Shown here one piece after another: positions 3,678 through 61,279 of a stretch of 64,000 nt of DNA. The translations under genes were made by a program, and so were the position numbers. Position 1 is the first letter of the stretch. Every line of letters begins with the position of its first letter. A model generated the notes under the pieces. It worked only from the letters and a program-made list of their open reading frames with translations, did not search any database and was not told the origin of the DNA. Source of the DNA: Shigella phage vB_SdyM_006; sequence record MK295204, one strand, 5' to 3'.

Positions 3678-4682
3678 CTATTTTGTAATTAAATTGACCC
3701 AATCTTTTCGAATGAATTCTTGTATTTCTTTTTGAATAGATTTCTTGATTAATGCTGGGTCATCGTAATCAAGAATATCATGCCCGTCTTTTAACATATC
3801 TTTTAAAACATCCTGCATCATTAGACCTTGAACTTTGCCAAAATCTTTTGAAGATATTTCGCCAACATGGCTAATCACATTAGATAAACGTTGTGCAGTG
3901 ATATATGATGTAGAAAAATTAACCAGTTCTTGGTCGTCATTTGATAATTCTGGTGTAGGTCTAATTGTTTTTACTTTACCAGTTTCTTTGAACTTAGCAT
4001 TTTTACATTTAAAAATTACACGGCTTTTATTATTGAACTGTGTTGGAGTAATAGGTTTAAGAACATAACCTTCTGCAATATTTTCTGAACCTTCTTTTTG
4101 AGGACCAAATACGTGGGCATTTGCAGCCGGAATACCATGTTCTTTTACTATTGCATTAAATTCTGGGATTAAAGAATCAAATGAACGCTCTAAATTACTT
4201 AATTCATCAAAGTCACCAGTTAAAATAACAGGGCAGATTTTAAGATTTGTTTTAGAAGATAACATTCTTAAAAATAAAGCATCTACTAAATCACCATTAA
4301 TTAAAATATCAAATACCCAGAAATCTTTTTCTTCGTAATCTACTTCTCGTTGAATACCAGGGCCTGCATATTCGCCAAAGACTGTTAAAAGTTCTAAGTC
4401 AGGCATTGATTCTTTAACAGTATTAAACATGTCAAGAATGTTTTGTTTATAACGCTTTAAGATTAATTCGTATCCAAAAAATGCTTCAGATTCACCAATA
4501 AGATTAGTTCGTTTTGCACAAACAACATCTACACCATCACAAATAAAACTAAAATTAGTCCCATGTATTTTTTCTTGGGCAATCCAAGGAATACCTGGTG
4601 CTGTTTTTCCTTCAAAAAAGGCCTTTTCTACTAATTTAGTGTTATCAATATTTTCAATAGAATCATATTTAATAAATTGCAT
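3678..4682 (-). CDS. rnlB: RNA ligase 2
   Basis: 334 aa, same length as T4 Rnl2; nucleotidyltransferase motif EKIHGTN and co-linear similarity to T4 Rnl2. Confidence 0.9.
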   Translation of the reverse strand: MQFIKYDSIENIDNTKLVEKAFFEGKTAPGIPWIAQEKIHGTNFSFICDGVDVVCAKRTNLIGESEAFFGYELILKRYKQNILDMFNTVKESMPDLELLTVFGEYAGPGIQREVDYEEKDFWVFDILINGDLVDALFLRMLSSKTNLKICPVILTGDFDELSNLERSFDSLIPEFNAIVKEHGIPAANAHVFGPQKEGSENIAEGYVLKPITPTQFNNKSRVIFKCKNAKFKETGKVKTIRPTPELSNDDQELVNFSTSYITAQRLSNVISHVGEISSKDFGKVQGLMMQDVLKDMLKDGHDILDYDDPALIKKSIQKEIQEFIRKDWVNLITK

Positions 4683-20281: not shown

Positions 20282-22345
20282 TTAAATAATAAATTTTTCT
20301 GGGACAAAAGTAAGATCAACAGCTGTTGATAATAATTCTAGCCCTTTTTGACTAATTTTACCAGTATTTTCTTTTAAGAATTCTTTAAACCCAATTTTTT
20401 CGATTTTTCCTTCAGATAAAAACTTATTTCCGTCAATAAGTTCGCTTTCATCTAGTAATTCTGGATCCACTACAGATGTTTCTACTAATATTGGTCTATT
20501 AAATTCTATATCACGAGCGTTTTCATAACCGTGGATAGAATGAATCTTAAGAGCTAAACCTCTAGGTAAAATCACCTCGCATTCACTAGAGTATTTTGAC
20601 ATATTACCAGGAATAATAACATTGACTTTATGTGCACCTTTAATAGTTATACCCATAGAAATGTTAATATCTGTTTTCTTAGTTGCTTTCTTACCATTAA
20701 CGGCTACACCAATATTTTTTGGTGTCATAACTGTTGATATAACATCATCGAATGTTTCGGATTCAAAAGTTACTGTAGTCGCGTTAGGTTTAATATTATC
20801 AAGAACATCATTTCGTTCCCCAAAAATAATTGGAGCTAATGAAGTCGAAATATAATTAGGAAAATATAATGTTTTATTTTTAGCAGCTTTTTCTACGTCG
20901 GCATAAGGTAATTTTTGTGCTCTATATAAAATAGTTCCTTTTTCTAACTTGGTTCCTTTTTTGAAGGCCCCATCTAAGACAGGAATTTTGTTTTCATACA
21001 CAGATTTTAAACTTTTATCTTTACCAAGCAAAAAGTCGTTCATTTCTTCATATCCACGTAAAGCATAATCTGTGATAACTTTTCGCTCTTCTTCTGTTAA
21101 ATCCATTTCTGTTTCGGTTCTAAATAACTCTTCTAAAGGAGTATAGAAAACATTTCTGTTTAAAGCAGAGATACAGCCTCTTAAAGCTCTAGTCTTAGCC
21201 ACATTATCGTCAGGTCCATATGTTTCTAAATCTTCGGCTATTTTTTTGTAAACATCCATAGCATTATTAGAAGTTTTGAGCGCATTGTTAATTATCAATA
21301 TATACGGTTTTGCTAATTTATATTTTTCTTCACTAGATAAATGATAAAAATTTTCAACACCATACCCAGATATGCGTTCTAAAGAATCTAATAAAAATCT
21401 AGCTTCTAGATCTGATTCTTCTTCACTCACGGCCGAATTTATTTTATCTAAAAACACAGATTTAGATTCATCAATTTTATTAAGGACATTTTTATGAACT
21501 AATGCAATTTTTGTAGAATCACTTTGGACAATAGGAGGATTATCTTGTAGTTCAATATATTTTCTTCTTCCTTCTTCAGAATAATTTTCTAAGTCTTCTG
21601 GTTTAGAAACACCATACATTGCTGATAATAATTCACGTCTAGAAACTTTAGTTTTTGAAATGACAGATCGTTCACTTCTTGTGTTTTCTTGTGCTGCAAT
21701 ACTTCCTGCAATGGCTTCTAATTTAGACACTTGCTTGCCAGTTTTGTCATTGATATACACATCACCTACTTTAGAATCGACTTTAGTATATAAGTCAGAA
21801 TCAATACCAGGAATCCCAGCGATGTCTTCTAAAGGTCTGTTTTTACGATATATTAAAACATAAGCATGTTTACCTGTAAATTGATACAAATCTTCTAAGA
21901 CAACAAATTTACCACCAGTACGTTGCATAGCCAGACGTTTGATTATTCTTTGTAATGTCTTTTCTTGGCCTTTCATTTTTTTAGCAGGGAATCTAAATAA
22001 AACTGCGTCCATTTTAAGTTTTTTAACTTGTTCGTATACAGTGTCAAAAATAGTATTCAATGCCCCAATAGGGTCTGAGCCTAAACCATTTCTTAATTCT
22101 GCTGCATTACCATTTTTAGACAAACTCATCAAAAACACTTGAACAAATTTATCACCTTGCTTTACTGCTTTTAATGCATCGCCTTTAGATAAATAAGACA
22201 CCATTCTAACTAAAAGATTGTCATTTCCAGGAACACTGACATTCCATAATTGAGGGACCTTAGCCCTTTTATTAAGATTAATAGCTTTATATTGAGCTAT
22301 TTCTGAATCAAAAACCTCATTTAAATTAATTTCATTTAATTCCAT
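20282..22345 (-). CDS. alt: ADP-ribosyltransferase Alt
   Basis: 687 aa (T4 Alt 682 aa); R-S-E type motifs YRAQ, YISTS, ECEVILPRG; late promoter upstream. Confidence 0.85.
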   Translation of the reverse strand: MELNEINLNEVFDSEIAQYKAINLNKRAKVPQLWNVSVPGNDNLLVRMVSYLSKGDALKAVKQGDKFVQVFLMSLSKNGNAAELRNGLGSDPIGALNTIFDTVYEQVKKLKMDAVLFRFPAKKMKGQEKTLQRIIKRLAMQRTGGKFVVLEDLYQFTGKHAYVLIYRKNRPLEDIAGIPGIDSDLYTKVDSKVGDVYINDKTGKQVSKLEAIAGSIAAQENTRSERSVISKTKVSRRELLSAMYGVSKPEDLENYSEEGRRKYIELQDNPPIVQSDSTKIALVHKNVLNKIDESKSVFLDKINSAVSEEESDLEARFLLDSLERISGYGVENFYHLSSEEKYKLAKPYILIINNALKTSNNAMDVYKKIAEDLETYGPDDNVAKTRALRGCISALNRNVFYTPLEELFRTETEMDLTEEERKVITDYALRGYEEMNDFLLGKDKSLKSVYENKIPVLDGAFKKGTKLEKGTILYRAQKLPYADVEKAAKNKTLYFPNYISTSLAPIIFGERNDVLDNIKPNATTVTFESETFDDVISTVMTPKNIGVAVNGKKATKKTDINISMGITIKGAHKVNVIIPGNMSKYSSECEVILPRGLALKIHSIHGYENARDIEFNRPILVETSVVDPELLDESELIDGNKFLSEGKIEKIGFKEFLKENTGKISQKGLELLSTAVDLTFVPEKFII

Positions 22346-22375
22346 TTTATCACCTTTATAATAAGAATATATTAC

Positions 22376-22383
22376 TATTTATA
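22376..22383 (-). promoter_or_regulatory. late promoter TATAAATA for alt
   Basis: Exact TATAAATA on minus strand about 30 nt before alt ATG. Confidence 0.55.
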
Positions 22384-22387
22384 CCAA

Positions 22388-31030: not shown

Positions 31031-31222
31031 TTAACCTAAGTTTAAAACAACTTTTTTAATTTCGCAATCAGGGCCGAAACGAGTATCTATTGCATCTTTA
31101 GCTTCTTTGAATGATTTGTACAAACACAAATGTTCTTCTCGTTTTCGTGTAAAGATTCCTTGCGAAATAGAAATACCTTGAATCATAAAAGTATTTTTAC
31201 GAAAAATTGCAAATAATTCCAT
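31031..31222 (-). CDS. hypothetical protein (63 aa)
   Basis: ORF. Confidence 0.4.
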   Translation of the reverse strand: MELFAIFRKNTFMIQGISISQGIFTRKREEHLCLYKSFKEAKDAIDTRFGPDCEIKKVVLNLG

Positions 31223-32220
31223 TAAAAGTCACCTCTATTAACTTGCCAGCACTCAAGTCCAAGAACTCGCCACATATCAACTACTTGTTGACGGTCATCT
31301 AAAACATAAAGAACATTATACCTATTTGCAATGTGTTTGTAAAACAATTCTTTCTTAACAATAGAATCTTTTCTATGATCTTTATGACTACGCATAATAA
31401 GCTTAGAATATTTTACGCCGTGTTTGTTAAGCCATTTTTCGGTCCCAATACGATGCTCTTTTTCTTCACCTTCTTCGCGTCCAGATGTTAATAATATCTC
31501 AACACCTAAATCATGCATCATATTAATATGATTAATAACATTTTGACGAGGTGTATCTTTCCATAATTTATACAGGTCATGTGGGCTACGATGATTGTTG
31601 TCAGCAATAGTTCCATCAATATCAACAATAATAGCTTTAGGCAAATCTAAAGTCTTAGACCAATCAGGAACACCATGCAAGTAATGTTGCATTTTTTCAT
31701 AAAACGAATAAATTACTGCTGGAGGAACTGCTGATTCTCCACGGTACAAGTTTCGTTTATATAGTGTTTCTAAGTCTTCATCAAAATAAACCCAATCAAG
31801 CTGGTATTTAAAGGTTTTAGCAATATCTTTCCATTTATCTCGTGTTTTTGGATTTAAGTTTGTGTCTGACACAATAACAATGCGATGACCAGATTTATTA
31901 AGCCATTCAACTGCGAGCAATTGCTGTTTATCTGTAACTTCTCGCTCACGTTGTTTTGATGGCTTATATTCATTACGCTTGCAATTAAATAGTTCACAGC
32001 GTAAATCATCACGATTAACATTTAGAACAATACCTGGATTAGCAGATACCATTTCTTCAGCCCAAGTAGATTTACCAGAACCTGGTGCACCAACTGTCAT
32101 AATAATTTGTTTTACAAATTCTTCTTTTGGTTTTGGAATATCATAACCCATGTACTTAAGAACCTGTTCATTTTCAATATTAACCCAAGTAATATCATCA
32201 CTTTGCATTGGTACAAACAT
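31222..32220 (-). CDS. pseT: polynucleotide 5'-kinase / 3'-phosphatase
   Basis: P-loop GAPGSGKST, phosphatase DIDGT, C-terminal WRVLGLECWQV match T4 Pnk; true start probably internal. Confidence 0.9.
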   Translation of the reverse strand: MFVPMQSDDITWVNIENEQVLKYMGYDIPKPKEEFVKQIIMTVGAPGSGKSTWAEEMVSANPGIVLNVNRDDLRCELFNCKRNEYKPSKQREREVTDKQQLLAVEWLNKSGHRIVIVSDTNLNPKTRDKWKDIAKTFKYQLDWVYFDEDLETLYKRNLYRGESAVPPAVIYSFYEKMQHYLHGVPDWSKTLDLPKAIIVDIDGTIADNNHRSPHDLYKLWKDTPRQNVINHINMMHDLGVEILLTSGREEGEEKEHRIGTEKWLNKHGVKYSKLIMRSHKDHRKDSIVKKELFYKHIANRYNVLYVLDDRQQVVDMWRVLGLECWQVNRGDF

Positions 32221-34511: not shown

Positions 34512-35630
34512 CTACTTTTTATATACTTCTGGGATAAAAAATGTGTAGTATTTAACAAATAGATCGTTTAAACATGATAATAATACGTCATAGTCAAATC
34601 CATTATACATTTTCATATAGGCAGAAAACACTTGTGGCACGCCTGCTTTATTGAATTCTGTCTGACCATTGATTGCGTAGTCTTTTCGATCTTTTCCAAG
34701 ATTTGCTTCATAAACCATTTTAACAGATTCAACTTGGTCATGAATAGCTTGAGTATAGACTTCTTCAAAGGCTTTAATTTTTTCTAAAGATTCTTGGTCA
34801 TTTGCAAATAATGATTTCAAATCGTCAGAGGTTCCTTCTACAATTGCTTTAAAAAGGTCTTCATTTGAAGTAATAGAATCTTTTGTTCTGTGTAAAGAAA
34901 CATAAGCATAACTTTTTACTTTAAATTTAGTCCCATCAGACATCTGAGCAACAACGCCTTCAATACCTTGTGATTCATAAACACGCTCTACCCAACCTTC
35001 TTCAGGTTCGTATCTAGTAACCAAAATTGGTCTTAATTCTTTAATTGCTTTTAAAGAGTCATAATCAATATATTCGCCGGTTTCATTATGACGAGCATTT
35101 AACAAGATTAAAGCTGGCTCAGAGTATTTAAGAACAATACGATTTGTTGGTGCAACATATTCAAAATTAAAAGTGTACTCAGGGTTATCTTTAATCACTT
35201 TCCTAACTTCAGAATACATTTCACTATTGATTAGTTTACATGCCTCTAGAGCCTGTTCTGAGCTAATAGAACCTTTAGATTTTAGATAAACGAACCCGTC
35301 AACAAGATAAGAACTAATTAATGAGCCGTCAGCTTTATCCATGAGATATTCTACTTTAGAAAGATCTAAATCCATTGTCATAGGATTTTCGTTTAAATTA
35401 AAAAACTTTTCCATAGGTCTAGAAAGAACTTTGACTGGATTATTATCTTTATCAAGTTCAAACATAATACCACGACATTCTAAAGCATCTGGCAATAACC
35501 AATCTGAATATGAAGCATAATTATAATTAAAAATCCTTCCTTTTTTATCTATACTCAAATTTACGTCATTATAGAAAAACTTTGTTCTATCATACTCGCA
35601 TAAAGCCATCAAATTGTCAAATAGTTTCAT
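34512..35630 (-). CDS. rnlA: RNA ligase 1
   Basis: FNYNYASYSDWLLPDALECRGIMFE, RPMEKFFNLNENP, KADGSL match T4 Rnl1. Confidence 0.9.
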   Translation of the reverse strand: MKLFDNLMALCEYDRTKFFYNDVNLSIDKKGRIFNYNYASYSDWLLPDALECRGIMFELDKDNNPVKVLSRPMEKFFNLNENPMTMDLDLSKVEYLMDKADGSLISSYLVDGFVYLKSKGSISSEQALEACKLINSEMYSEVRKVIKDNPEYTFNFEYVAPTNRIVLKYSEPALILLNARHNETGEYIDYDSLKAIKELRPILVTRYEPEEGWVERVYESQGIEGVVAQMSDGTKFKVKSYAYVSLHRTKDSITSNEDLFKAIVEGTSDDLKSLFANDQESLEKIKAFEEVYTQAIHDQVESVKMVYEANLGKDRKDYAINGQTEFNKAGVPQVFSAYMKMYNGFDYDVLLSCLNDLFVKYYTFFIPEVYKK

Positions 35631-41005: not shown

Positions 41006-41857
41006 CTATACACTGAAAGGGTATTTAATAGCAGGGTGATATTGATAATCTTGTACTTCAAAATCATCTACAGTGACCCAGGTTTCAATATCTTCTAATG
41101 ATCTGATATTATCATTAATAATAAGTTTAGGTGCATTAAACGGCGTCCTAGACACATGCTCTGGGACTAAAGATAATTGGTCTTCATAGATATGGGCATT
41201 TGTTATCTTATGAAACACTTTACCAGGTTTATTTGCTGTAATCTGGGCCATTAAATGTAAAAGCACATAACACTGAATCATATTAAAATTTAAACCTAAT
41301 GGGACATCACATGATCTTTGGTATGAAGTTAAATATAAAGTCCCATTAACGAGAGAAAAATTATGGGTATGCATACAAGGACGTAAACAACCTAAGTCAA
41401 ATTCTCCTGGATTCCAGAACGTTAGGATTTCTCCACGATCATCAGTTCCTTCACTTAAATTATCATAGATTTTTCTGAGTTGGTCAATAGTGCTATTAGG
41501 TCCTTGCCATTGTCGTCCTTGAACACCATAAACACGGCCCATATCGTCTTCACCTTTGCGATGAGGGTTATTTAGCCATGCTTGATTTTCATTAGCGTTT
41601 GCATTCCATGTATTACAACCAATTTCACGAAATTGCGCTGCATTGTCGTAACCACGAAGATATCCTAACAGTTCAGCAATAGCAGCTTTATAAAAGCTTT
41701 TACGAGTTGTATCAATTGGGAATTCAGAATATTCTAGGTCGGCATTAATAATAACACGACAAAATTTTCCAGTTCGTTTATTATATACGTCTTGGCCTTC
41801 ATTATAAATCTTTTTTAATAATTGTTGATACTGATTCTTTTCTAAGATCTTTTCCAT
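41006..41857 (-). CDS. td: thymidylate synthase family protein, uninterrupted
   Basis: [29 protein letters not shown] align with ThyA; active-site region reads LRPCMH not the usual PCH; position between frd and nrdA. Confidence 0.8.
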
Positions 41858-57740: not shown

Positions 57741-58013
57741 TTAACCTCTATTTAAATGCATTTCAATAATAGAATAAGTCGATTTATGGCCCATATTAAA
57801 TTCTTCAATTAATTGTTTTTTCTCGTCTTCAGTTAATGACTTAATTAAAGACTTTAAGTTACTTCTATTAAATAACTTTCCGTTATTACGAATACCTAAC
57901 TCATTAATGAACGCTATGAAAAGATTTTCATCTTCAATTATATCTTCACTTTCGAATTTGATAAGAATTGAGATAACAGCAAAAATTTCAGATAAAGTTT
58001 CCAATTTGTTCAT
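57741..58013 (-). CDS. asiA: anti-sigma-70 factor AsiA
   Basis: 90 aa, same length as T4 AsiA; SILIKF, DIIE, FIAFINE, LIEEFN match. Confidence 0.85.
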   Translation of the reverse strand: MNKLETLSEIFAVISILIKFESEDIIEDENLFIAFINELGIRNNGKLFNRSNLKSLIKSLTEDEKKQLIEEFNMGHKSTYSIIEMHLNRG

Positions 58014-58236
58014 TTTGTACCTTGCTATGTGTATTAAAAATAGGTAAATATGTTACTAATTCAGCAGATGGCATTACAATATCCCATTCGGATAAAATAT
58101 CCATCATTCCTGATAAATATGGTTTTCCATCACAATATAAATGGCAACCATCTGGACTATATACTTCGTTTCCTGTTATTCTTGACTTAACTCGGAATCC
58201 TTTCCGAGCTTTATCCATTGCACTAAAGAAATTCAT
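57988..58236 (-). CDS. hypothetical protein (82 aa) between motA and asiA
   Basis: ATG with GAGG RBS. Confidence 0.5.
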   Translation of the reverse strand: MNFFSAMDKARKGFRVKSRITGNEVYSPDGCHLYCDGKPYLSGMMDILSEWDIVMPSAELVTYLPIFNTHSKVQNEQIGNFI

Positions 58237-58242
58237 TTAACC

Positions 58243-58848
58243 TCACTTAGAAGCTTCTATGATATTAGTCATATTTTCTTCTGTTAATTTAATATCTACA
58301 TAATAATTATTGCCTTTAAATTTAATTTCAGCGCCAATTGCTTTATATTTTTCTAATAACTGTTCTGATAATTTGTAACCAAATACACGGATTTCACCTT
58401 TATGTCTGATTTCGAATTGACGAATTCCATTAGTACGTTTTTCTAAACGTAATTCTAAATTACTTCTGTTTTCGAAAATTCCTTTGATAGCAAAAGGAGA
58501 TAATTCTTTCATTTTATCAGCAATATCTATCATTTCTTGAGTGATACCACGTGGTTTACGTGTTGACTTAATTTTAGAAGGATTTTCTTCTGCATAGATA
58601 TCAGCAGCTTTAAGAACAACCTCTGTACCTTGTTCAGTTGTAACTAACCCATCACCAGATTTTTCAATAAAACCTTTCTTAATAAGAACACCAATATTTG
58701 AATTGATTGATGCAGCTGAAATTTCTGGAAGTGCTTCACGAATATCCTTAGCTTGTAAGAAATTAGTTTTAGCAACAACTAAAAGAATAGCACCAGTTTT
58801 TTCGTTTAATTCTGAGTTTGCTTTTAAAACATAAGATAATTTAGACAT
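58243..58848 (-). CDS. motA: middle-transcription activator MotA
   Basis: NSNIGVLIKKGFIEKSGDGL matches T4 MotA; track ORF runs through its promoter; ATG at 58848 has GGAG RBS. Confidence 0.85.
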   Translation of the reverse strand: MSKLSYVLKANSELNEKTGAILLVVAKTNFLQAKDIREALPEISAASINSNIGVLIKKGFIEKSGDGLVTTEQGTEVVLKAADIYAEENPSKIKSTRKPRGITQEMIDIADKMKELSPFAIKGIFENRSNLELRLEKRTNGIRQFEIRHKGEIRVFGYKLSEQLLEKYKAIGAEIKFKGNNYYVDIKLTEENMTNIIEASK

Positions 58849-58892
58849 AATAGACTCCGATGATAAATTGTTCATTTCGTTTTGATGATAAG

Positions 58893-58922
58893 ATAATACT
58901 ATATCTAAAAAGCTTTGTAAAC
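58893..58922 (-). promoter_or_regulatory. T4-type early promoter for motA
   Basis: Minus strand GTTTAC, 18 nt, TATTAT, directly after terminator. Confidence 0.55.
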
Positions 58923-58942
58923 AGTTATTTTCAATAAAATGC

Positions 58943-58966
58943 AAAAAGGAGCACAAGGCTCCTTAA
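58943..58966 (-). terminator. intrinsic terminator
   Basis: Minus strand AAGGAGCC-TTGT-GCTCCTT then TTTT; near-identical hairpin at 59901..59920. Confidence 0.55.
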
Positions 58967-58974
58967 ATATAAGA

Positions 58975-59412
58975 TTAATAACTGATTTTTAATCTATCAC
59001 AAATTTCTTTTAGATGATTAATTCTATGTTCAGGTAGATTTTTGTCTAAAATAACTAAACCATATTCATCAGGATGATAATCACCTAAGAATTTGATTTG
59101 ATGGTTTATTATAGCAAACTGGTTGATATTAGCATCAAATCTATCAATAGTTTCTTTTAAACCACTTTTAGCAACTAAAATGTCATTATTGTCTCTTTTA
59201 AATAATGTAATCCATTTATCTACAAAAGACTTATCTTCATGTGCTTTTTCTGTATAACCTTTAGACATCATTAATTTACGAAACCTTTCCATATTTAATG
59301 GACGCACCCAATAATCAATATCTCTTGGTGGTGTTTTGTAATAATAATCTCTAGCGGTCCCGCCAATGATATGATAATTAATATTATTATCACTTAATAT
59401 TTTAGAAATCAT
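58975..59412 (-). CDS. minimal nucleotidyltransferase-fold protein (CCA-adding/poly(A) polymerase head-domain-like)
   Basis: 145 aa; HIIGGTARDYYYKTPPRDIDYWV fits GG.RD...D.D signature of Pol-beta superfamily class II head domain. Confidence 0.5.
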   Translation of the reverse strand: MISKILSDNNINYHIIGGTARDYYYKTPPRDIDYWVRPLNMERFRKLMMSKGYTEKAHEDKSFVDKWITLFKRDNNDILVAKSGLKETIDRFDANINQFAIINHQIKFLGDYHPDEYGLVILDKNLPEHRINHLKEICDRLKISY

Positions 59413-59600
59413 TCTTTAATAGCCCATCCTTCTTTATACATTGTTCTTACATAAAATAGTTCAGTAAAATCAAATCCATCTTCTGACATGATAAATGGCC
59501 CTTCCATGTAAAAATATTCTTCATCAGAAAAATACTTATGGGTTATTTTATACCCTTTGTGCATAAGAAGTAAAGCTTCACCACGAGATAAATTATACAT
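59409..59600 (-). CDS. hypothetical protein (63 aa)
   Basis: ATGA overlap with nucleotidyltransferase gene. Confidence 0.45.
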   Translation of the reverse strand: MYNLSRGEALLLMHKGYKITHKYFSDEEYFYMEGPFIMSEDGFDFTELFYVRTMYKEGWAIKE

Positions 59601-59838
59601 ATTGACCTTCTGTTAAAGAATTCAAGTATACATCCCAGAATGAATCAAATATTGATTTGATAGATGAATCTGGACCAATCACACATGACGCAGAACAAAA
59701 ATCTTCAAAATCAATAGTCGGCATGGTTTTACCAGCAGCTGTTATATAAATTGATGCCAAAGGCCATTCTGGATTTTTAGCTGTTAATAAAGAAACCATC
59801 GCAATAAACTGTTCAAATAATCTAATTTTCTTGTTCAT
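59593..59838 (-). CDS. hypothetical protein (81 aa)
   Basis: Track ORF extends to 59910; ATG at 59838 has GAAGGA RBS. Confidence 0.45.
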   Translation of the reverse strand: MNKKIRLFEQFIAMVSLLTAKNPEWPLASIYITAAGKTMPTIDFEDFCSASCVIGPDSSIKSIFDSFWDVYLNSLTEGQYV

Positions 59839-59866
59839 TTCTATTCCTTCTATAAAGTGTGTACTT

Positions 59867-59896
59867 ATAATATCATGATAACATTTGTATGTAAAC
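59867..59896 (-). promoter_or_regulatory. T4-type early promoter
   Basis: Minus strand GTTTAC, 18 nt, TATTAT, directly after gp52 terminator. Confidence 0.5.
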
Positions 59897-59900
59897 AAAA

Positions 59901-59920
59901 AAAGGAGCACAAGGCTCCTT
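59901..59920 (-). terminator. intrinsic terminator after gene 52
   Basis: Same hairpin as 58943..58966, then TTTTTTT. Confidence 0.55.
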
Positions 59921-59923
59921 AAA

Positions 59924-61279
59924 TTACGCTAAAATATTATCAATATCTTTTTTGTACTCAACATCAGGTGTTGTAGACTTCCAATACTGATATTCTTTTT
60001 TATGTTCTTTTGCAGAATCTTCTAGTTTTTTAATTTCGTCTTTTGTCATGTGATATAAATTCATAGAAATCAATTTATCAGCAAAAGGCTTAAGGTCTTG
60101 GAATTGTTCAATTGATTCTAATGCAGCTTTTTTACTTTTACCAGATAGTTCAATAGTGCCATCAAGGACTTTTTTAATAAAAACAACTTTGGCTTTTGCG
60201 TATTCGTACCCATATTCTGATTCAGAAATTTTTAGGTCAATTCGTTTTTGATAAAACGGCTTTCTTACTTCAACAAAATATTTAATTAGCTCAGATGCTG
60301 TTTTAAAATCATCCCTAATTCTACCTTGGTCATCAATAACTGTAAAAAACTGACCTATTTTTTGAGACAACCCAAACTCTTTAATAATTTGTTCATGTCG
60401 TTCTTTAGGGTCTGTTTTAAGGTCAAAATCTTTTTTCAATGTAATCTTAAACCCAAATTTAACTTGACCTGTTTTTTCGTCTTTACCAGAAAGGTCATCA
60501 TATTCTGCTATTTTACCTTGATTAACCAAATTATCTAAAACTTTTACCGTATAGTCTTCTCGTTCCCATTTATATGGAATTTCTGTAATTGTTAGTTGTG
60601 TTTTACCTTTAAGTTCATATGTTCCTTGTAGTTCAACACCAGCTTCAGTAGGAATAATTTTACCATTAAACTGTGGGTATTGAACTTCAGGTTCTTTATC
60701 TAACTTACCTTCAATTGCTAATTTAGTGCATTCAACAACAGATTTTAAAGAATGTGGAAGAATATTTGTTGCATAACCAGTTGCAATACCTTTTACGCCA
60801 TTTAAAAGAACAGTAGGAATAATAGGCAAATAAAATTTAGGAGGAACATGTTCAATATCTTTGTGCTCTGGAGAAATCTCAATATCTTTATATAAATCAA
60901 AGAAATTCTGAGAGATTCTACAGAAAACATAACGAGCTGCACCACCTTTTTGGATTAATCTTGAACCAAAAGCACCTTGCCCATCTAAAAAAGGAACATT
61001 ATTATTCCAATCATTTGCCATTAATTTACCAGCTTCGGCAGCAGAGCCTTCACCATGATGATAACCAATTTCAGCTACACCACCAGACAAACCAGCTAAT
61101 TTATGGAATTTCTTTCTATCACCTTTAGCTTTTTCTAAAGCACGGTAAATTATAAATCGCTGAACAGGTTTAAATCCATCAACTAGATTAGGAATAGCAC
61201 GTTCTTCAACTGTATAAAGTGCATACTCTTTAGCTTCTATGTCAATAATACTTTTTAATGAACGGATATTTAATTCCAT
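59924..61279 (-). CDS. 52: DNA topoisomerase II medium subunit gp52
   Basis: 451 aa (T4 gp52 about 441 aa); GyrA-like N-terminus (AIPNLVDGFKPVQRFIIY, active-site-Tyr region ARYVFCRIS); AGGAG RBS. Confidence 0.8.
   Translation of the reverse strand: MELNIRSLKSIIDIEAKEYALYTVEERAIPNLVDGFKPVQRFIIYRALEKAKGDRKKFHKLAGLSGGVAEIGYHHGEGSAAEAGKLMANDWNNNVPFLDGQGAFGSRLIQKGGAARYVFCRISQNFFDLYKDIEISPEHKDIEHVPPKFYLPIIPTVLLNGVKGIATGYATNILPHSLKSVVECTKLAIEGKLDKEPEVQYPQFNGKIIPTEAGVELQGTYELKGKTQLTITEIPYKWEREDYTVKVLDNLVNQGKIAEYDDLSGKDEKTGQVKFGFKITLKKDFDLKTDPKERHEQIIKEFGLSQKIGQFFTVIDDQGRIRDDFKTASELIKYFVEVRKPFYQKRIDLKISESEYGYEYAKAKVVFIKKVLDGTIELSGKSKKAALESIEQFQDLKPFADKLISMNLYHMTKDEIKKLEDSAKEHKKEYQYWKSTTPDVEYKKDIDNILA

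What the first reader, a model, noticed from the sequence alone, without database searches (positions are those of the whole stretch)
58975..59412. Minimal CCA-adding-enzyme-like nucleotidyltransferase alongside a full RNA-repair toolkit
The 145-aa protein has the class II Pol-beta nucleotidyltransferase head signature (GGTARD ... DIDYWV) but is far too short to be a complete CCA-adding enzyme. The phage also encodes RNA ligase 1 (34512..35630), RNA ligase 2 (3678..4682) and polynucleotide kinase/phosphatase (31222..32220), the T4 system that heals tRNA cut by host anticodon nucleases. A mini nucleotidyltransferase could extend this to tRNA 3'-end repair, or be a nucleotide-signal enzyme.
Basis: partly seen in the sequence, partly recalled or inferred. 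Interest (0 to 1): 0.6.

Follow-up and report, generated by a model that had tools for sequence, protein, structure and literature searches.

The report
Head-only CCA-type nucleotidyltransferase in phage
This 145-residue early phage gene encodes just the catalytic "head" of the enzyme type that builds tRNA CCA ends; it belongs to an already annotated but untested phage family, and nothing ties it to tRNA repair.

Summary
The ORF at 58975..59412 (- strand, 145 aa) is real, carries GGTARD and DIDYWV, and matches phrog_1614 "nucleotidyltransferase" (E 2.6e-31).

The link to RNA repair is not supported:
- The family is mostly acidic (median pI 4.9).
- It sits mainly in about 40 kb T7-like phages, one of which, read in full, has no RNA ligase, PNK or tRNA genes.
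- It coexists with a full-length CCA-type enzyme and RlaP in another T4-like contig.
- The closest reference genome already has RlaP, and all eight of its tRNA genes encode CCA.
- No cGAS/DncV-like similarity was found.

RefSeq and a 2020 paper already annotate the family, but its function is untested. The gene lies in a small early-promoter cassette flanked by identical 26-nt hairpins.

Verdict: a new member of a known, uncharacterised kind, of modest interest.

The parts
58975..59412 (-). CDS of the 145-aa stand-alone class II nucleotidyltransferase head (stop codon included)
59347..59364 (-). Codons for GGTARD (residues 17-22): the motif A glycine loop and helix N-terminus that bind the NTP triphosphate in Pol-beta NTases
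   Evidence: Sequence read. G17 and G18 invariant, R21 and D22 kept in 98% of 52 family members. Aligns to GGxVRD of class II enzymes.
59305..59322 (-). Codons for DIDYWV (residues 31-36): the first two metal-binding carboxylates D31 and D33 on strand beta2
   Evidence: D31 invariant and D33 98%. Strand 32-36 in the model. Aligns to DxD of class II enzymes.
59182..59184 (-). Codon for D77, the putative third catalytic carboxylate, on strand 76-81
   Evidence: 98% conserved. Lies on a beta strand next to beta2 in the model's secondary-structure order. Its role is inferred from Pol-beta topology; side-chain geometry could not be inspected.
59116..59139 (-). Codons for FDANINQF (residues 92-99), a motif-B-like element (class II RRDFTINA)
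   Evidence: F92 96%, D93 98%, N95 and N97 100%, Q98 96%. hhalign pairs RFDANINQF with RRDFTMNAI of a full-length class II enzyme.
59023..59025 (-). Codon for R130 at the start of the C-terminal helix, the putative equivalent of the Arg of motif D (EDxxR)
   Evidence: 98-100% conserved. hhalign pairs it with the Arg of EDPVR in the class II profile, in a low-confidence part of the alignment. The E/D positions are L and P here and are not conserved in the family.
59409..59600 (-). 63-aa ORF of the same cassette, translationally coupled to the NTase (ATGA overlap). Function unknown.
   Evidence: ORF. phrog_3474 E 1.8e-24, unknown function. No Pfam hit. Only 49% identical in Pm5461. Not linked to the NTase outside Bragavirus.
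59593..59841 (-). 82-aa ORF, first gene of the cassette (RefSeq start; the mechanical 105-aa GTG start runs into the terminator). Function unknown.
   Evidence: ORF. RefSeq annotation of phiP4-3 gp004. phrog_25885 E 1.8e-48, unknown function.
59899..59924 (-). Upstream copy of the perfect 26-nt repeat. It is a terminator-like hairpin (AAGGAGCC-TTGTG-CTCCTT plus a T run) directly after the gene 52 stop codon and forms the left cassette boundary.
   Evidence: the repeat finder family D4. Terminator scan. Only 2 copies in 64 kb against 0 expected.
59867..59895 (-). Sigma-70 / T4-early-type promoter-like site (TTTACA-17-TATTAT, TG-extended) that would drive the three-gene cassette
   Evidence: Promoter scan, 10 of 12 matches. 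A promoter is annotated at the same place in Pm5461. This is a consensus match only, with no transcript data.
58943..58968 (-). Downstream copy of the identical 26-nt hairpin repeat, 7 nt after the NTase stop codon, forming the right cassette boundary
58893..58921 (-). Second promoter-like site (TTTACA-17-TATTAT) after the downstream hairpin, in front of motA
   Evidence: Conserved with Pm5461, where a promoter is annotated.

Best explanation
**What it is.** The gene encodes a stand-alone, catalytically intact 'head' domain of a class II (CCA-adding enzyme / poly(A) polymerase type) Pol-beta nucleotidyltransferase, plus one extra helix. It belongs to a phage-restricted family (phrog_1614). That family is common in about 40 kb T7-like phages and has been picked up by the T4-like Bragavirus lineage. 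There it sits in a small cassette bounded by a terminator and an early-type promoter, in the variable slot between topoisomerase gene 52 and motA.

**Shown here.**
- The fold.
- Family-wide conservation of the GG loop, three Asp (D31, D33, D77), the motif-B-like FDxNINQ and R130.
- The absence of neck (beyond one helix), body and tail domains.
- Conservation as strong as that of neighbouring core genes.
- A distribution independent of RNA ligase, PNK and tRNA genes.

**Inferred.**
- It binds Mg-NTP as class II enzymes do. The triphosphate sits on the GG loop and R21, the metals on the three Asp, the ribose on D93/N97, and R130 stands in for the motif D Arg.
- It transfers one or a few NMP to a hydroxyl acceptor soon after infection.
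- By homology the acceptor is most likely the 3'-OH of an RNA or short oligonucleotide. The enzyme would bind it without the tRNA-measuring body and tail domains and without the ED..R base template. It therefore should not synthesise CCA on its own and is not a component of the Rnl1/Rnl2/PNKP repair pathway.

Its biological role is probably a host-specific accessory function of early infection. The real acceptor is unknown.
For: **Identity**
- phrog_1614 E 2.6e-31.
- The profile search against PDB hits only class II enzymes.
- 18 of 22 members weakly hit PF01743.
- AF2 pLDDT 96.1, pTM 0.87.
- The Foldseek top 37 hits are all class II enzymes.

**Catalytic set**: conservation figures and secondary-structure order.

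**Motif mapping**: hhalign probability 95%, E 3e-8, query residues 11-134 against class II positions 1-136. FDANINQ pairs with RRDFTMNA and R130 with the EDxxR Arg.

**Family distribution**
- 225 phage records, mostly about 40 kb Pseudomonas, Dickeya and Escherichia T7-likes.
- BFVD hits in LKD16, LIMEzero, PP2, DU_PP_II and others.
- The literature notes the same small protein in 37 of 46 Pectobacterium Autographiviridae, with no bacterial homologues (PMC7693777).

**Independence from RNA repair**
- T7-like phage 3MF5 has the gene but no RNA ligase, PNK or tRNA genes.
- Contig L005 has the mini NTase plus a full-length class II enzyme plus RlaP.
- phiP4-3 has RlaP and 8 tRNA genes with encoded CCA.

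**Selection**: 86% amino-acid identity across Bragavirus, equal to the core genes.

**Early expression**: promoter-like site and terminator hairpins.
Against: - No biochemical data exist for any member (literature searches found none).
- The acceptor is not identified. The acidic charge of the family (median pI 4.86, 49 of 52 below 6.5) and the replacement of the motif B Arg-Arg by x-Phe argue against strong RNA binding. They would fit a small-molecule or protein acceptor as well or better. The window protein itself is mildly basic (pI 8.55).
- The R130 to motif D correspondence lies in a low-confidence part of the hhalign alignment.
- The promoter and terminator are consensus matches only.
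Confidence: 0.5

Rival explanations
1. Counter-defence or host-takeover enzyme with a non-RNA acceptor. The acidic mini NTase nucleotidylylates a host protein (for example a basic RNase toxin or effector, as MntA antitoxins AMPylate HepT) or a small molecule. Alternatively it makes or replaces a nucleotide-derived signal.
For: - The family is acidic, like MntA, ANT(2'') and LnuA type NTases (their charge is from general knowledge).
- It has no RNA-binding domain.
- It is phage-only, with host-biased distribution: 37 of 46 Pectobacterium Autographiviridae against 60 of more than 500 others (PMC7693777).
- In Bragavirus it sits in an early, variable slot. In T4 that slot's neighbourhood holds host-interaction genes (arn, stp, ac).
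Against: - No PADLOC hit and no CD-NTase or MNT hit in the fold searches.
- No conserved partner gene or HEPN neighbour in any context examined.
- No phage NTase of this fold is known as an anti-defence factor in the papers searched.
Confidence: 0.25
2. The protein is a minimal tRNA 3'-end (CCA) repair enzyme that complements Rnl1, Rnl2 and PNKP against host tRNA nucleases. It might act with a host partner that supplies tRNA binding.
For: - The head is homologous to CCA-adding enzymes.
- The phage carries Rnl1, Rnl2 and PNKP and, in the reference genome, tRNA genes and cef.
- Small NTases such as MenT can act on tRNA acceptor ends without body or tail domains (PMC11541572, listed).
- Several GenBank records label homologues 'tRNA nucleotidyltransferase', though only by similarity.
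Against: - It lacks the ED of EDxxR, motif E, the flexible loop, and the body and tail domains. It scores below the PF01743 gathering threshold (13 against 23 bits).
- The family is acidic.
- Most members are in T7-like phages; the one read in full has no tRNA, RNA ligase or PNK genes.
- It coexists with a full-length class II enzyme and RlaP in L005.
- phiP4-3 already has RlaP, the NTase experimentally linked to repair of damaged RNA 3' ends.
- All 8 phage tRNA genes encode CCA.
- The host has its own CCA enzyme (general knowledge).
Confidence: 0.12
3. A replication-linked role. The enzyme adds nucleotides to primer or DNA 3' ends at the replisome, possibly using dNTPs because the ribose-sensing Arg of motif B is replaced by Phe.
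For: - In T7-like phages the gene lies among DNA-metabolism genes. It often overlaps the start of primase/helicase or sits near endonuclease, RNAP or DnaB-like helicase genes.
- In Bragavirus it follows a topoisomerase gene.
- A few T7-like homologues end in an acidic tail with a terminal aromatic residue, reminiscent of the T7 gp2.5 and gp4 tails (the T7 comparison is from memory).
- Motif B reads xFD instead of RRD.
Against: - Gene order in T7-likes is fixed by class II timing and is not evidence of function.
- The neighbours differ between lineages.
- Only 4 of 52 members have the acidic-aromatic tail, and the window protein has none.
- No DNA polymerase X or TdT-like hit ranks high.
Confidence: 0.07
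4. A catalytically dead remnant that serves only as a binding protein or decoy.
For: It is very small, and no activity has been shown for any member.
Against: All catalytic positions are 98-100% conserved across a family with about 25% mean identity. Conservation across Bragavirus is at core-gene level.
Confidence: 0.04

Closest known systems
[quoted passage not shown] PDB 3AQL, 4WBY/1VFG, 3WFO, 3H37, 1MIV, 1OU5)
   Same: - Motif A GGxxRD...P(K/R)DxD, a third carboxylate, and a motif-B-like D-x-N-I-N.
- An Arg at the position of the motif D Arg.
   Different: - 145 aa against 350-580 aa.
- Motif B RR is replaced by x-Phe.
- The E/D of EDxxR are not conserved.
- No motif E, no flexible loop, and no body or tail tRNA/RNA-binding domains.
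- Below the PF01743 gathering score.
- The family is acidic.
- Not a member of the CCA-adding enzyme family as defined by its motif set.
Small 'nucleotidyltransferase' / 'tRNA nucleotidyltransferase' proteins of Autographiviridae (phrog_1614; Pseudomonas phages gh-1, phi15, 17A, 3MF5, LKD16; Pectobacterium PP2, DU_PP_II; Pantoea LIMEzero), discussed in Evseev et al. 2020 (PMC7693777)
   Same: - Same family by sequence and by fold.
- Same conserved residues.
- Phage-only, with function untested.
   Different: - The window protein is the shortest form. It is 145 aa against a family median of 176, with no N- or C-terminal extensions.
- It is mildly basic rather than acidic.
- It sits in a T4-like myovirus early cassette rather than in the class II region of a T7-like genome.
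S. pneumoniae NP_344798.1 (PDB 2LA3), a stand-alone protein whose entry title reads 'reveals a CCA-adding enzyme head domain'
   Different: Only 8% identity; 191 aa; not detected by the sequence searches. Its function is also unknown as far as I know, and no paper on it was found in the library.
RlaP (PF10127), the RNA-ligase-associated Pol-beta NTase of RNA repair systems
   Same: A Pol-beta superfamily NTase encoded by phages that carry RNA ligases. It adds 1-2 NMP to damaged RNA 3'-OH ends in vitro (PMC12776372).
   Different: It is a different family. The window protein has no PF10127 hit. RlaP is about 330 aa and is encoded separately in the same phage lineage (phiP4-3 gp215) and in L005.
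Small Pol-beta NTases acting on other acceptors: MenT/AbiEii toxins (tRNA acceptor ends), MntA antitoxins (protein AMPylation), ANT(2'')-Ia and LnuA (antibiotics)
   Same: Similar size (130-200 aa) and the same minimal catalytic core. They show that a head-sized NTase can work without tRNA-binding domains.
CD-NTases (cGAS/DncV-like signalling enzymes)
   Same: Membership of the Pol-beta superfamily only.

Membership tests
Pol-beta superfamily nucleotidyltransferase (catalytic core) | hG[GS] loop between beta1 and a helix, [DE]h[DE]h on beta2, and a third carboxylate on a neighbouring strand | tested here: met
   G17-G18 follow strand 13-16 and precede helix 18-24. D31 and D33 lie on strand 32-36, and D77 on strand 76-81. 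All are 98-100% conserved. Side-chain geometry could not be inspected because no coordinates were available.
Class II NTase head domain (CCA/PAP type), fold level | Head-domain fold closest to class II enzymes rather than to class I or other Pol-beta families | tested here: met
   [not shown]
Pfam PF01743 (PolyA_pol head domain) | Score at or above the curated gathering threshold (23 bits) | tested here: not met
   13.0 bits, E 0.14, covering only residues 14-54. 18 of 22 relatives give weak hits, the best at E 6.4e-6.
Class II CCA-adding enzyme | Motif B RRD (ribose/NTP recognition) | tested here: inconclusive
   The Asp and the downstream x-N-I-N are conserved and align (D93, N95, N97). The Arg-Arg pair is x-Phe in 96% of the family.
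Class II CCA-adding enzyme | Motif D EDxxR amino-acid template for CTP/ATP selection | tested here: not met
   Only the Arg (R130) is conserved. The E and D positions are L126 and P127 here and vary across the family.
Class II CCA-adding enzyme | Flexible loop between motifs A and B, and motif E in the neck | tested here: not met
   Only 14 residues, holding one short helix, separate D77 from F92. The protein ends 15 residues after R130, so there is no room for motif E. The role of these elements is from established CCA-enzyme literature, recalled from memory.
Class II CCA-adding enzyme | Body and tail domains that bind the tRNA acceptor/T-arm | tested here: not met
   145 aa in total. Nearly all family members (median 176 aa) end within 13-45 residues of R130. 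The full-length comparator in L005 is 354 aa and also has PolyA_pol_RNAbd.
Class II CCA-adding enzyme | CCA-adding activity on tRNA | not testable with these tools
   Needs an in vitro assay or cca-mutant complementation.
phrog_1614 (phage 'nucleotidyltransferase') | Significant full-length match to the family HMM | tested here: met
   E 2.6e-31, 110 bits, residues 2-143 against profile positions 26-192 of 268.
RlaP (PF10127) | Match to PF10127 | tested here: not met
   No hit at E up to 10. The lineage's true RlaP is a separate 331-aa protein (49.9 bits).
CD-NTase / cGAS-DncV-like | CD-NTase fold or HMM match | tested here: not met
   [not shown]
MNT (MntA-type) antitoxin | NTP_transf_2 / MNT HMM match and an adjacent HEPN toxin gene | tested here: not met
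   No PF01909 hit for the query and one of 22 relatives at E 0.31. The neighbours are gp52, two small unknown ORFs and MotA.

The most novel reading that the evidence does not exclude
A phage-only lineage has reduced the class II CCA/poly(A) polymerase enzyme to its bare head plus one Arg-bearing helix and repurposed it for a non-tRNA acceptor. Candidate roles are a host-range-linked counter-defence enzyme that nucleotidylylates a host toxin or effector, or one that synthesises a small nucleotide product. If so, this would be the smallest natural class II nucleotidyltransferase and a new class of phage accessory enzyme.
Probability: 0.25. Interest if true: 0.65.

Novelty: new member of a known kind. 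Interest (0 to 1): 0.33.

Why it matters
- **A natural minimal enzyme.** If active, these 145-230 aa proteins would be the smallest natural class II nucleotidyltransferases. They would show what a CCA/PAP-type head can do without the neck template and the tRNA-measuring domains, which bears on how nucleotide and acceptor choice arise in this enzyme class.
- **A candidate host-specific function.** The family occurs in at least 225 sequenced phages and is enriched in phages of particular hosts (PMC7693777). It is conserved like a core gene in Bragavirus, yet no function is known. That makes it a reasonable target for a host-specific counter-defence or takeover role.
- **Annotation.** The label 'tRNA nucleotidyltransferase' on many homologues is not justified by the domain content.

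Tried and rejected
2. **RlaP identity.** There is no PF10127 hit. RlaP is a separate gene in the lineage.
3. **Direct sequence match to solved structures.** Single-sequence phmmer gave only noise. The family profile was needed.
4. **hhalign with default settings.** It aligned only motif A. A lower MAC threshold, a 52-sequence profile and a 3-sequence class II profile were needed to extend the alignment through motif B and R130. That extension is low-confidence at the C-terminus.
5. **A conserved partner gene.** Contexts differ:
   - amidase and primase in Pseudomonas T7-likes;
   - endonuclease VII and RNAP;
   - DnaB-like helicase;
   - Dam methylase in L005;
   - ORF63 only in Bragavirus.
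6. **ORF63 as a DUF2829/Tad2-like sponge (by eye).** There is no Pfam support at E up to 10, so the idea was dropped.
7. **An acidic, aromatic C-terminal tail as a family feature that recruits the replisome.** Only 4 of 52 members have it, so it was dropped as a family feature.
8. **A full-length CCA enzyme in the same phage.** None is in the window, and none turned up in phiP4-3: tblastn over positions 1-157 kb, annotation read for the last 11 kb.
9. **Literature on function.** Seven searches found only descriptive mentions.
10. **The afdb50 fold library.** It was unavailable.

Full report
**1. The observation**

The ORF listing finds an ATG ORF at 58975..59412 on the minus strand, 145 aa, exactly as reported. 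The sequence encodes GGTARD at residues 17-22 and DIDYWV at residues 31-36. The start codon overlaps the stop of an upstream 63-aa ORF (ATGA).

Pfam identifies T4-type Rnl1 at 34512..35630, Rnl2 at 3678..4682 and PNKP at 31222..32220. They lie 24-55 kb away, so they share a genome with the NTase gene but not an operon.

**2. The genome and the locus**

The window is a T4-like Bragavirus. It is 98.5% identical in nucleotides to Proteus phage phiP4-3 over 58000-60500. The protein is 100% identical to a hypothetical protein of Shigella phage vB_SdyM_006. RefSeq already labels the phiP4-3 orthologue 'nucleotidyltransferase'.

On the minus strand the gene order is:
1. denB, ndd, gene 52 (topoisomerase II)
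2. an 82-aa ORF
3. a 63-aa ORF
4. the NTase
5. motA, an 82-aa ORF, asiA

T4 itself has only the 49-aa motA.1 between gene 52 and motA, so this is a variable slot.

A perfect 26-nt direct repeat brackets the three inserted ORFs (58943-58968 and 59899-59924). On the coding strand each copy is a terminator-like hairpin followed by a TTTACA-17-TATTAT promoter-like site. Pm5461 has hairpins and annotated promoters at the same two places, with different hairpin sequences. The block therefore looks like an early-expressed cassette bounded by terminator and promoter modules. The resemblance to the 'PeSL' modules described for T4-type phages is from memory and was not tested.

**3. Is it under selection?**

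Between the window and Pm5461 the NTase is 86% identical. That is the same as gp52 (86%), AsiA (89%) and MotA (82%). The two small cassette ORFs are only 49% and 54% identical.

**4. What family?**

- PHROGs gives a strong full-length match to phrog_1614 'nucleotidyltransferase' (E 2.6e-31).
- Pfam gives only sub-threshold hits: PF14907 at 18 bits and PF01743 at 13 bits against a cut-off of 23.
- NCBIfam and PADLOC give nothing meaningful.
- A full HMMER pass over 1.84 billion representative proteins finds only 21 relatives at E up to 1e-3, all 92-210 aa apart from two giant proteins.
- A profile search of 5.8 billion proteins finds 36, mostly on 40-47 kb contigs.
- tblastn with a more central member (P0016) finds homologues in 225 phage records, mostly about 40 kb T7-like genomes. 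By organism name they split into Pseudomonas 154, Escherichia 17, Dickeya 16, Vibrio 8 and Proteus 8. gh-1, phi15 and 17A are among them. They are annotated variously as nucleotidyltransferase, tRNA nucleotidyltransferase or hypothetical protein.
- Evseev et al. 2020 had already noticed this small 'tRNA nucleotidyltransferase' in 37 of 46 Pectobacterium Autographiviridae against 60 of more than 500 others. They found no bacterial homologues and left its role open (PMC7693777).

**5. Conserved residues**

In a 22-sequence alignment and a 52-sequence alignment, the positions kept in at least 96% of sequences are G17, G18, R21, D22, D31, D33, D77, F92, D93, N95, N97, Q98 and R130. P29 is kept in 94%. 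This gives three features:
- a Pol-beta signature, GGxxRD...P(K/R)DxD plus a third Asp;
- an FDxNINQ element;
- a single Arg at the start of the last helix.

**6. Fold**

AlphaFold2 with the family alignment gives pLDDT 96.1 and pTM 0.87.

- **Foldseek against PDB:** it agrees, with the top 37 hits all class II.
- **Foldseek against BFVD:** it retrieves dozens of 145-254 aa phage 'nucleotidyltransferase' or 'poly A polymerase head domain' proteins.
- **PDB profile search:** it hits only class II enzymes at E 5e-6 to 1e-3, over motif A.

No cGAS/DncV-type enzyme appears anywhere.

**7. Motif mapping**

A metagenomic T4-like contig (L005) encodes a 48%-identical mini NTase and also a full-length 354-aa class II enzyme with all motifs. 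That enzyme matches Aquifex 1VFG at phmmer E 1e-24.

I ran hhalign with the 52-member mini-family profile against a small class II profile built from that protein plus the 1VFG and 6IBP fragments. It gives probability 95% and E 3e-8 over query residues 11-134.
- RFDANINQF pairs with RRDFTMNAI (motif B).
- R130 pairs with the Arg of EDPVR (motif D).
- The E and D positions correspond to L126 and P127 and are not conserved in the family.

The protein is therefore a head plus the first neck helix. Motif E, the flexible loop, and the body and tail domains are absent. Only 14 residues separate D77 from F92. Nearly all family members end 13-45 residues after R130.

**8. Evidence bearing on the tRNA-repair idea**

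1. Domain content, as described in section 7.
2. The family is acidic: median pI 4.86, with 49 of 52 members below 6.5. The window protein is an exception at 8.55.
3. The T7-like phage 3MF5 has the gene but no RNA ligase, PNK or tRNA genes. Most carriers are such 40 kb phages.
4. L005 carries the mini NTase together with a full-length class II enzyme and an RlaP NTase, so the mini form does not stand in for either.
5. The closest complete genome, phiP4-3, shows no full-length class II enzyme: tblastn over positions 1-157 kb found none, and none is annotated in the remaining 11 kb. It does have a 331-aa RlaP (PF10127, 49.9 bits). RlaP is the NTase predicted (PMC7824862) and now shown in vitro (preprint PMC12776372) to add 1-2 NMP to damaged RNA 3' ends.
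6. All eight phiP4-3 tRNA genes encode their CCA.

These points make a dedicated CCA-repair role unlikely. They do not exclude it, because MenT-type toxins show that small NTases can act on tRNA ends.

**9. Most likely mechanism**

*Shown:*
- a complete, strongly conserved NTP- and metal-binding set on a class II head fold;
- early-type promoter context;
- core-gene-level conservation;
- a phage-only distribution independent of RNA-repair genes.

*Inferred:*
- The enzyme binds Mg-NTP as class II enzymes do and transfers one or a few nucleotides to a hydroxyl acceptor.
- By homology the acceptor is most likely an RNA or oligonucleotide 3'-OH.
- It works without templated CCA specificity and without tRNA measurement.

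The acidic surface and the loss of the motif B Arg pair keep a protein or small-molecule acceptor (a counter-defence reading) as a serious rival. A replication-linked role and an inactive remnant are minor rivals.

**10. Novelty and score**

The gene is a new, unusually short member, carried by a T4-like phage, of a family already annotated in RefSeq and PHROGs and already discussed in the literature. No function has been established for that family.

- Its functional link to the RNA-repair kit is not supported.
- Interest is modest at 0.33.
- The most novel reading still open is a repurposed head-only class II enzyme acting on a non-tRNA acceptor in counter-defence. I put its probability at about 0.25.

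Noticed in passing
window 58943-58968 and 59899-59924: A perfect 26-nt direct repeat (AAAAAGGAGCACAAGGCTCCTTAAAT on the + strand). There are only 2 copies in 64 kb. On the - strand each is a terminator-like hairpin followed by a TTTACA-17-TATTAT promoter-like site, and together they bracket exactly the three-ORF insert between gene 52 and motA. Pm5461 has hairpins and promoters at both sites but with two different hairpin sequences. This suggests recent recombination or gene conversion between the two modules in this phage.
   Followed up: partly
L014 13129-14124 (phiP4-3 120128-121123; outside the window): The closest reference genome encodes a second, unrelated 'nucleotidyltransferase' of 331 aa. 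It is an RlaP (PF10127) RNA-repair NTase and a natural partner for the Rnl1/Rnl2/PNKP kit.
   Followed up: yes
L013 42288-43831 (phiP4-3 tRNA cluster; outside the window): Eight phage tRNA genes (Arg, Tyr, Met, Pro, Gly, Asp, Ser, Glu), interspersed with small ORFs. All eight have the 3' CCA encoded in the DNA. The 64-kb window itself has no tRNA gene.
   Followed up: yes
L005 (metagenomic T4-like contig, Logan ERR12379738): Within 12 kb this contig carries four NTase-type genes: a full-length class II CCA-type enzyme (354 aa), a NadR-like NMNAT-Nudix protein, the 143-aa mini NTase and RlaP. It also carries NAMPT and a Dam methylase.
   Followed up: partly
window 58243..58956 (-), motA: The mechanical 237-aa TTG ORF, which matches the 714-nt RefSeq CDS in phiP4-3, starts inside the terminator hairpin and upstream of the promoter-like site at 58921..58893. 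The Pm5461 annotation starts at MSKLSYVLK (201 aa). The true start here is probably the ATG at about 58848 (less likely 58878), so the phiP4-3 annotation looks over-extended.
   Followed up: partly
window 59409..59600 (-) and 59593..59841 (-): The two small ORFs co-transcribed with the NTase (phrog_3474 and phrog_25885, both of unknown function) evolve much faster than the NTase (49% and 54% against 86% identity to Pm5461). To the eye ORF63 resembles DUF2829/Tad2-like small proteins, but no Pfam match supports this.
   Followed up: partly
P0039, P0043, P0046, P0023 and L003 4926-5477 (T7-like homologues): A few longer family members end in an acidic tail with a terminal aromatic residue (e.g. 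DDEAEMDIPW, GGDDGPF). This is reminiscent of the polymerase-binding tails of T7 gp2.5 and gp4 (comparison from memory). Only 4 of 52 pass a simple test, so it is not a family feature.
   Followed up: partly
phiP4-3 20481-22387 (L012 13482-15388) against window about 41006..41857: In phiP4-3, thymidylate synthase is annotated in two pieces flanking a homing endonuclease gene. The window has a single 283-aa ORF in the corresponding area, and the two genomes are offset by about 1.2 kb between the PNKP and NTase loci. The window phage may lack that intron/endonuclease insertion.
   Followed up: no
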